Below are positions 59,289-59,372 of a stretch of DNA of 64,000 nt, piece after piece. Positions within the stretch are counted from its first letter, which is position 1, and every line of letters starts with the position of its first letter. The stretch comes from Escherichia coli (GTDB lineage Bacteria > Pseudomonadota > Gammaproteobacteria > Enterobacterales > Enterobacteriaceae). The translations under genes and the position numbers were made by a program. The DNA is taken from assembly GCF_003334305.1 (NCBI RefSeq), contig NZ_QOWS01000003.1. The stretch is one strand, 5' to 3'. The notes under the pieces are model-generated. The model did not search any database. It was not told where the DNA came from and worked only from the letters and a program-made list of their open reading frames with translations.

Positions 59289-59372
59289 AATGATAATGAT
59301 TGCTAATCCTAGCGATAGGTTTACCCGATAGCAAGGGATTTCTCTGGCTTGCAAATGATAAAAATTATCATA
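59289..59372. promoter_or_regulatory. Fur boxes in the divergent fhuF/yjjZ promoter region
   Basis: TGATAATGATTGCTAATC (59291..59308) and AATGATAAAAATTATCATA (59354..59372) resemble the Fur consensus GATAATGATAATCATTATC. Confidence 0.5.

What the first reader, a model, noticed from the sequence alone, without database searches (positions are those of the whole stretch)
59289..59372. Paired Fur boxes shared by divergent fhuF and yjjZ
Two 19-bp Fur-like sites (TGATAATGATTGCTAATC and AATGATAAAAATTATCATA) lie in the 140-bp region between the fhuF and yjjZ start codons. This implies iron control of the small membrane protein YjjZ as well as FhuF.
Basis: partly seen in the sequence, partly recalled or inferred. 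Interest (0 to 1): 0.25.

Follow-up and report, generated by a model that had tools for sequence, protein, structure and literature searches.

The report
Known Fur operators between fhuF and yjjZ
The short DNA stretch between the E. coli genes fhuF and yjjZ does carry binding sites for the iron-sensing repressor Fur, but both the sites and the iron control of yjjZ were published years ago, so this is an ordinary, already explained feature.

Summary
The window is E. coli chromosome. fhuF (58482..59270, -) and yjjZ (59411..59647, +) diverge across a 140-bp spacer.

- Site A (59291..59308) is 18 nt, not 19, and a poor consensus match (7 of 19 mismatches).
- Site B (59354..59372) is strong. Its 7-1-7 core at 59356..59370 has 1 mismatch.
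- A third box, C (59374..59392, 3 mismatches), was missed. It is the best 19-mer match in the 64-kb window.

These sites coincide with the two Fur DNase I footprints of Chen et al. 2007. The high-affinity footprint covers B and C. The low-affinity footprint covers A.

Fur control of yjjZ is already published: a start site seen only in a fur deletion strain and in vitro, core-regulon membership in nine E. coli strains and in UPEC, and iron-repressed reporters in Salmonella.

The geometry suggests two operators rather than one shared operator. The strong cluster spans -37..+15 of the yjjZ promoter. The weak one spans -16..+37 of the fhuF promoter.

In 65 other enterobacterial species a GGDEF gene separates the two genes. 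There the strong cluster stays with yjjZ and the weak box stays with fhuF.

Verdict: real, correctly interpreted, already known. Interest is low.

The parts
58482..59270 (-). fhuF coding sequence (siderophore-iron reductase, 262 aa)
   Evidence: ORF. RefSeq annotation. NCBIfam NF007932 FhuF equivalog, 477 bits against a cut-off of 300.
59264..59317 (.). Low-affinity Fur-protected region (fhuF2 of Chen et al. 2007). It spans -16..+37 relative to the fhuF start site.
   Evidence: Published footprint 4603680-4603733 (NC_000913.2), transferred with an offset of 4544416. The K-12 alignment has no indel.
59291..59308 (.). It has 7 of 19 mismatches to the 19-bp consensus and 3 to the 7-1-7 motif at 59291..59305.
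   Evidence: The core GCAATCATTATCATTTAGATT is at least 90% conserved at most positions across 81 distinct enterobacterial fhuF upstream sequences.
59300..59334 (-). fhuF sigma-70 promoter: -35 TTGCTA (59334..59329), 17-nt spacer, -10 TAGGAT (59311..59306), published start sites at 59301 and 59300.
   Evidence: Start sites 4603717/4603716 come from Chen 2007. I read the hexamers from the sequence and printed them. They are conserved. K-12 has TATGAT at the -10.
59342..59346 (.). Approximate junction between the fhuF-proximal and yjjZ-proximal conserved blocks. In other genera a GGDEF gene and its flanks lie here.
   Evidence: Conservation profiles. Gene order.
59349..59384 (+). yjjZ sigma-70 promoter: -35 TTGCAA (59349..59354), 16-nt spacer, -10 TATGAT (59371..59376), published +1 at 59384.
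   Evidence: Promoter scan. Start site 4605777 in NC_000913.3, mapped through. The same hexamers were predicted after RpoD genomic SELEX.
59347..59399 (.). High-affinity Fur-protected region (fhuF1 of Chen et al. 2007). It spans -37..+15 of the yjjZ promoter and -98..-46 of the fhuF promoter.
   Evidence: Published footprint 4603763-4603815. Mapping.
59351..59372 (.). The centre at 59363 is the strongest site (22.3 bits) in Chen 2007.
   Evidence: Chen 2007 Table 4 gives coordinate 4603779, which maps to 59363. The box is invariant in 10 Escherichia sequences.
59374..59392 (-). Fur box C, GATAATGAAAACCAATATC, with 3 mismatches. It carries a rare A-to-T variant at 59384.
   Evidence: The homologous box has 2 mismatches in 54 of 65 species where yjjZ is separated from fhuF.
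59411..59647 (+). yjjZ coding sequence: 78 aa, DUF1435, three hydrophobic stretches.
   Evidence: Pfam PF07256, E 1.9e-35. Hydropathy profile.

Best explanation
The 140-bp spacer holds two back-to-back sigma-70 promoters, and each has its own Fur operator.

A strong composite operator lies over the -35, the -10 and the start site of the yjjZ promoter. It comprises boxes B and C (59351..59392), within the footprint 59347..59399. Iron-loaded Fur bound there keeps RNA polymerase off the promoter, so yjjZ is silent when iron is plentiful.

A weaker operator lies over the -10, the start site and the early leader of the fhuF promoter. It comprises box A, within the footprint 59264..59317. It represses fhuF only at higher Fur occupancy.

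What others have shown: the two footprints with their affinity ranking, both start sites, and derepression in fur mutants.

What I infer here: which operator serves which promoter, and that the Escherichia arrangement arose when a GGDEF diguanylate-cyclase gene between the two genes was lost. That loss left the two -35 hexamers 14 bp apart.
For: Identity and consensus strength:
- The locus is present in 5425 of 5426 complete E. coli genomes, annotated as fhuF and yjjZ.

Published experiments:
- Footprints, their affinity ranking and the fhuF start sites (PMC2189734).
- The yjjZ start site, seen in a fur deletion strain and in vitro but not in wild type (PMC10301672).
- Regulon membership and the Salmonella reporters.

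Geometry:
- The high-affinity footprint is at -37..+15 of yjjZ.
- The low-affinity footprint is at -16..+37 of fhuF.

Comparative test:
- In 65 species a GGDEF gene of about 350 aa separates the two genes.
- Within 70 nt upstream of yjjZ the best 19-mer has 2 to 4 mismatches. Upstream of fhuF it has 4 to 7.
- The yjjZ side is better in 64 of 65 species and tied in 1.
- Both promoter-plus-box blocks are conserved independently.
Against: - No experiment available to me mutates one cluster and measures each gene, so the operator-to-promoter assignment rests on position and conservation.
- Fur can spread from strong sites at higher concentration. Chen 2007 notes this 'secondary footprinting'. In E. 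coli the strong cluster, 46 to 98 bp upstream of the fhuF start, could therefore assist fhuF repression.
- A promoter-like match pointing towards fhuF lies inside the strong cluster: TTGATA-16-TATGAT, 10 of 12. The SELEX paper predicts a similar one. If it is used, the strong cluster would also act directly on fhuF.
- The 65 species are related, so the paired comparison does not consist of 65 independent observations.
Confidence: 0.8

Rival explanations
1. There is one genuinely shared operator. The strong cluster nucleates Fur binding, which spreads or cooperates across about 65 bp to the weak box. Both genes then depend on both clusters.
For: - Fur gives extended secondary footprints at higher concentration.
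- Both clusters lie within one 140-bp spacer, with only 14 bp between the two -35 hexamers.
- A fhuF-directed promoter-like match lies inside the strong cluster.
Against: - The two footprints are separate and differ in affinity.
- In 65 species the two clusters are about 1.4 kb apart and each is still conserved next to its own gene. Neither therefore needs the other.
- The mapped fhuF start sites are at 59301/59300, not inside the strong cluster.
Confidence: 0.15
2. The matches are AT-rich promoter sequence that merely resembles Fur boxes and have no regulatory role.
For: - Fur hexamers resemble -10 and -35 elements.
- Boxes B and C overlap TTGCAA and TATGAT.
- Site A alone is no better than about 100 other entries in the window.
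Against: - DNase I protection by purified Fur at both places.
- Derepression of yjjZ in fur mutants.
- Iron repression in Salmonella.
- Shuffles predict 0.01 sites as good as box C in the window.
Confidence: 0.02
3. Site A is mainly part of an OxyR operator over the fhuF promoter, and its Fur-box resemblance is secondary. From memory, Zheng et al. 2001 reported OxyR repression of fhuF.
For: - The region 59293..59329 gives the best OxyR-motif match in the spacer.
- ATAG repeats are visible in the sequence at 59315..59318 and 59329..59332.
Against: - That match has 7 of 20 mismatches, tied with nine other places in the window, so it is uninformative.
- Fur itself protects 59264..59317.
- OxyR and Fur binding are not mutually exclusive.
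- The Zheng 2001 paper is not held in the library.
Confidence: 0.03

Closest known systems
fhuF promoter Fur sites fhuF1 and fhuF2 (Chen et al. 2007, Nucleic Acids Res 35:6762; PMC2189734)
   Same: It is the same DNA. The high-affinity footprint fhuF1 maps to 59347..59399 and contains boxes B and C. The low-affinity footprint fhuF2 maps to 59264..59317 and contains box A. The strongest information-theory site sits at 59363, the centre of box B.
   Different: That paper names both clusters after fhuF and mentions yjjZ only as a landmark in a figure legend. Here, position and comparative genomics assign the strong cluster to yjjZ. This window also differs from K-12 at 4 spacer positions.
yjjZ as a Fur regulon member (EcoCyc/RegulonDB as quoted in PMC10301672; ChIP-exo pan-regulon PMC10164565; UPEC PMC7157518; Salmonella PMC8432900 and PMC8970401)
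   Different: Nothing substantive. The finding rediscovers this from sequence alone.
Bidirectional Fur-controlled enterobactin promoter regions (fepA-fes, fepB-entC, fepD-entS)
   Same: Divergent iron-regulated genes with Fur boxes in a short spacer. Their footprints are listed beside fhuF in Chen 2007 Table 3.
   Different: As I recall, a single protected region in those loci overlaps both divergent promoters. I did not test this. Here there are two separate footprints of different affinity, each over one promoter, and the adjacency is evolutionarily recent.
Extended Fur operator arrays such as the aerobactin iucA promoter
   Same: Several adjacent or overlapping boxes form a strong primary site, with weaker secondary binding nearby. 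iucA appears in the footprint list.
   Different: In iucA the array serves one promoter. Here the strong and weak parts serve opposite promoters.

Membership tests
Fur box / Fur operator of the E. coli Fur regulon | Match to the 19-bp consensus GATAATGATAATCATTATC or to the 7-1-7 motif TGATAATnATTATCA | tested here: met
   Box C has 3 of 19 mismatches and box B has 4 of 19. The 7-1-7 core of B has 1 mismatch. These are the best scores in the 64-kb window, and shuffles predict 0.01 sites with 3 or fewer mismatches.
   Site A has 7 of 19 mismatches, like about 100 other entries in the window. It has 3 mismatches to the 7-1-7 motif, like 28 entries. Its status as a real site rests on conservation and the published low-affinity footprint.
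Fur box / Fur operator of the E. coli Fur regulon | Position overlapping the -35, -10 or start site of the regulated promoter | tested here: met
   The strong footprint spans -37..+15 of the yjjZ +1. The weak footprint spans -16..+37 of the fhuF +1. Both use published start sites mapped onto the window.
Fur box / Fur operator of the E. coli Fur regulon | Physical binding by Fur | not testable with these tools
   Published: DNase I footprints and a gel shift with purified Fur (PMC2189734), and ChIP-exo core-regulon membership (PMC10164565).
Fur box / Fur operator of the E. coli Fur regulon | Iron- and fur-dependent expression of the adjacent genes | not testable with these tools
   Published for yjjZ. 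fhuF is listed in the core Fur regulon and is the reporter gene of the Fur titration assay.
Fur box / Fur operator of the E. coli Fur regulon | Conservation of the box upstream of orthologous genes | tested here: met
   Of 65 species with separated genes, 63 have a 19-mer with 3 or fewer mismatches within 70 nt of the yjjZ ATG. The fhuF-proximal core AATCATTATCATT is conserved in 81 distinct sequences.
Single shared operator of a bidirectional promoter | One protected region that overlaps both divergent promoters | tested here: not met
   There are two separate published footprints with a gap at 59318..59346 (mapped). The two clusters are conserved independently where the genes are 1.4 kb apart.

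The most novel reading that the evidence does not exclude
The site known in the literature as the high-affinity fhuF Fur site may be, by origin and by function, the yjjZ operator. It came to lie next to fhuF only in Escherichia, and independently in Leclercia/Silvania, when an intervening GGDEF diguanylate-cyclase gene was lost. On this reading fhuF is governed essentially by its own conserved weak box. As I recall, fhuF-lacZ is known for unusual sensitivity to small changes in Fur occupancy, and this would explain it. The strain in this window would also carry a rare change (A to T at 59384) that weakens the main box and alters the first transcribed base of yjjZ.
Probability: 0.5. Interest if true: 0.2.

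Novelty: already known. Interest (0 to 1): 0.08.

Why it matters
It matters little beyond careful bookkeeping. The sites, their binding by Fur and the iron control of yjjZ are all in the literature and in the curated databases quoted there.

The small additions here are:
- The stronger cluster belongs by position and by evolutionary history to yjjZ, not to fhuF.
- The compact E. coli control region is a fusion of two once-separate regulatory regions, left behind by loss of a diguanylate-cyclase gene.
- This strain carries a rare variant in the best Fur box.

The function of YjjZ is still unknown. The published papers that discuss it note its strong, conserved Fur control but no role. That question is the interesting one at this locus, and this finding does not address it.

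Tried and rejected
- Apparent 1-bp indel against K-12. I first misread the sequence ruler by one base and thought the spacer was 141 bp. The alignment showed no indel, with the spacer at 59271..59410.
- OxyR motif scan. I recalled the motif ATAGnTnnnAnCTAT-N7-ATAGnTnnnAnCTAT. The best spacer match has 7 of 20 mismatches, tied with nine other places in the window, so it says nothing either way. The paper that mapped OxyR binding at fhuF (Zheng et al. 2001, PMC95352) is not held.
- NCBIfam search with YjjZ found no family. Pfam gives only DUF1435.
- Rfam at a permissive threshold over 58300..60300 found nothing in the spacer. It found only the tRNA and REP-derived naRNA4 matches downstream.
- Searching for a link between Fur and the Salmonella GGDEF gene STM4551 returned no paper whose title or abstract points to Fur control of that gene. 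I opened none of them. The equation of the intervening gene with STM4551 is from memory and unverified.
- The PeroxiHUB preprint only lists a synthesised YjjZ promoter in its methods and gives no regulatory information.

Full report
**What is there.** The window is E. coli chromosome with the gene order yjjQ, bglJ, fhuF (58482..59270, minus strand), yjjZ (59411..59647, plus strand), one tRNA-Leu, rsmC, holD. A 1.4-kb query spanning the locus matches 5425 of 5426 complete E. coli genomes over at least 80% of its length. FhuF matches its NCBIfam equivalog model at 477 bits. YjjZ is a 78-aa DUF1435 protein (Pfam E 1.9e-35) with three hydrophobic stretches, so 'small membrane protein' is a fair description.

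**The observation.** Both quoted strings are present once each: 59291..59308 (18 nt, not 19) and 59354..59372.

I scored every position of the window on both strands against the 19-bp Fur consensus and the 7-1-7 motif. The three best 19-mer scores in 64 kb all lie within 59351..59392:
- Box C (59374..59392, minus strand) has 3 mismatches.
- Box B (59351..59369) has 4 mismatches.
- The complementary strand of box C also scores 4.

The best 7-1-7 match in the window is the core of box B, with 1 mismatch at 59356..59370. Dinucleotide-preserving shuffles predict 0.01 sites with 3 or fewer mismatches in the window.

It has 7 of 19 mismatches, a score shared by about 100 other entries in the window, so its consensus match alone is not above chance. 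The anatomy is therefore one weak box near fhuF and a strong composite cluster near yjjZ.

**Mapping onto published experiments.** The spacer aligns to K-12 MG1655 without indels and with four substitutions, so published coordinates transfer directly.

Chen et al. 2007 (PMC2189734) footprinted this spacer with purified Fur and found two protected regions:
- A high-affinity region, 4603763-4603815, maps to window 59347..59399 and contains boxes B and C.

Their strongest predicted site (22.3 bits, coordinate 4603779) maps to 59363, the centre of box B. They give the fhuF start sites as 4603717/4603716, which map to 59301/59300.

The yjjZ start site is 4605777 in NC_000913.3, which maps to 59384. 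It was not detected in wild type, was measurable in a fur deletion strain, and was clear in vitro (1494 read starts). The promoter is described there as TTGCAA/TATGAT flanked by two Fur sites listed in EcoCyc (PMC10301672).

Other published evidence for Fur control of yjjZ:
- It is in the core Fur regulon of nine E. coli strains and is upregulated on fur deletion (PMC10164565).
- It is in the direct Fur regulon of UPEC CFT073 (PMC7157518).
- It is iron-repressed in Salmonella reporters (PMC8432900).
- In Salmonella a yjjZ-lacZ fusion depends on sigma-S only when Fur is present, which the authors read as sigma-S counteracting Fur repression (PMC8970401).

**How it most likely works.** With the published start sites placed on the window:
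- The high-affinity footprint spans -37 to +15 of the yjjZ promoter (-35 TTGCAA 59349..59354, 16-nt spacer, -10 TATGAT 59371..59376, +1 at 59384).
- The same footprint spans -98 to -46 relative to the fhuF start.
- The low-affinity footprint spans -16 to +37 of the fhuF promoter (-35 TTGCTA 59334..59329, 17-nt spacer, -10 TAGGAT 59311..59306).

The simplest reading is two operators, each blocking its own promoter. The two -35 hexamers are only 14 bp apart.

That Fur binds both places with different affinity is shown by others. That each cluster serves mainly the promoter it covers is my inference.

**A comparative test of 'shared'.** I fetched fhuF loci from 80 enterobacterial species and located yjjZ in them.
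- yjjZ is directly divergent from fhuF only in Escherichia (140-bp gap) and in Leclercia/Silvania (153 to 166 bp).
- In 65 other species (Citrobacter, Salmonella, Enterobacter, Klebsiella, Kosakonia, Kluyvera, Raoultella, Lelliottia and others) the yjjZ start lies about 1.4 kb away.
- The intervening gene encodes a membrane protein of about 350 aa with a GGDEF diguanylate-cyclase domain (TIGR00254, E 4e-47). It is on the fhuF strand, and 70 of the 80 loci have it.

In those 65 species the best 19-mer within 70 nt upstream of yjjZ has 2 mismatches in 54, 3 in 9 and 4 in 2. Within 70 nt upstream of fhuF it has 4 to 7, mostly 6 or 7. The yjjZ side is better in 64 species and tied in one. Random 70-nt windows from the same loci give 6 to 13. 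These species are related, so this is not 65 independent trials, but the direction is uniform.

Alignments show two independently conserved blocks:
- The yjjZ -35, box B, the -10 and box C.
- The fhuF -35, the -10 and the weak box.

In Escherichia the two blocks abut at about 59342..59346.

Genera outside the Escherichia-Salmonella-Citrobacter group also carry the GGDEF gene. Its presence is therefore most parsimoniously ancestral, and the compact Escherichia spacer is what its loss left behind. This is an inference from gene order, not from a reconstructed tree.

The cluster named after fhuF in the literature thus travels with yjjZ.

**What remains open.** Cooperation between the clusters in E. 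coli is not excluded.
- Fur spreads at higher concentration.
- A promoter-like match pointing towards fhuF lies inside the strong cluster: TTGATA-16-TATGAT, 10 of 12.
- A genomic SELEX study that found RpoD holoenzyme binding in this spacer predicted a similar fhuF-directed promoter (PMC3946193).

I give the shared-operator reading 0.15.

An OxyR operator that I recall being reported for fhuF could be neither confirmed nor excluded. The consensus scan was uninformative and the paper is not held. No known RNA family lies in the spacer.

**Strain-specific details.**
- Position 59309 (C here, A in K-12) lies in the fhuF -10. The window's sequence over 59280..59338 is identical in 3560 of 5019 matching genomes, and TAGGAT is also the family consensus. 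K-12's TATGAT is therefore probably the derived allele.
- Position 59384 (T here, A in K-12) lies in box C and is the reported first transcribed base of yjjZ. The window's sequence over 59346..59408 is identical in only 14 of 5305 matching genomes. In a ten-sequence Escherichia alignment only the window and strain H15 have T. The change raises box C from 2 to 3 mismatches. Any effect on expression is untested.

**Verdict.** The coordinates need small corrections: site A is 18 nt and weak, and a stronger third box was missed. 'Shared' is better replaced by 'two adjacent operators'. Novelty: already known. Interest: low.

Noticed in passing
window 59384: There is a rare A-to-T substitution inside the best Fur box (position 9 of box C), at the base reported as the yjjZ transcription start. 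The surrounding 63 nt are identical in only 14 of 5305 matching complete E. coli genomes. Among the sequences aligned, only strain H15 shares it.
   Followed up: yes
window 59309: The fhuF -10 hexamer reads TAGGAT here and TATGAT in K-12 MG1655. The window's sequence over 59280..59338 is identical in 3560 of 5019 matching genomes, and TAGGAT is the consensus across Enterobacteriaceae. The laboratory strain therefore seems to carry a derived -10 closer to consensus.
   Followed up: partly
window 59686..59772: Only one tRNA-Leu(CAG) lies between yjjZ and rsmC, where K-12 has three (leuV, leuP, leuQ). Most E. coli genomes match this stretch in two pieces, consistent with variation in tRNA copy number.
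   Followed up: partly
window 59893..60064: Two 61-nt direct repeats (59893..59953 and 60004..60064, 93% identical) look like REP/BIME elements. One scores above the Rfam gathering threshold for naRNA4 at 59912..59994 (70.3 bits against 59.5).
   Followed up: partly
L025:316..1380 and the equivalent position in 70 of 80 fhuF loci: A membrane GGDEF diguanylate-cyclase gene lies between yjjZ and fhuF in most Enterobacteriaceae and is absent from Escherichia. From memory it is probably the STM4551 orthologue, which I did not verify. It diverges from yjjZ, so the strong Fur cluster lies in its upstream region too.
   Followed up: partly
L025 about 170..200 (yjjZ-GGDEF spacer): A second conserved block lies about 45 nt beyond the Fur cluster: TGACA, then about 17 nt, then TGATAAATT. 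It looks like an extended -10 promoter for the GGDEF gene. The Fur cluster would then sit upstream of that promoter rather than on it.
   Followed up: no
L013, L015, L017, L024, L027, L028, L035 at about 597..616: Several Citrobacter loci have a Fur-like 19-mer with 3 mismatches inside the GGDEF coding sequence.
   Followed up: no
L050 and L079: An assembly labelled Chryseobacterium sp. 18061 carries an Enterobacter-like fhuF locus (71% identity to E. coli FhuF). This suggests contamination or mislabelling. A soil MAG labelled only 'Proteobacteria bacterium' also carries a fhuF locus (68% identity).
   Followed up: no
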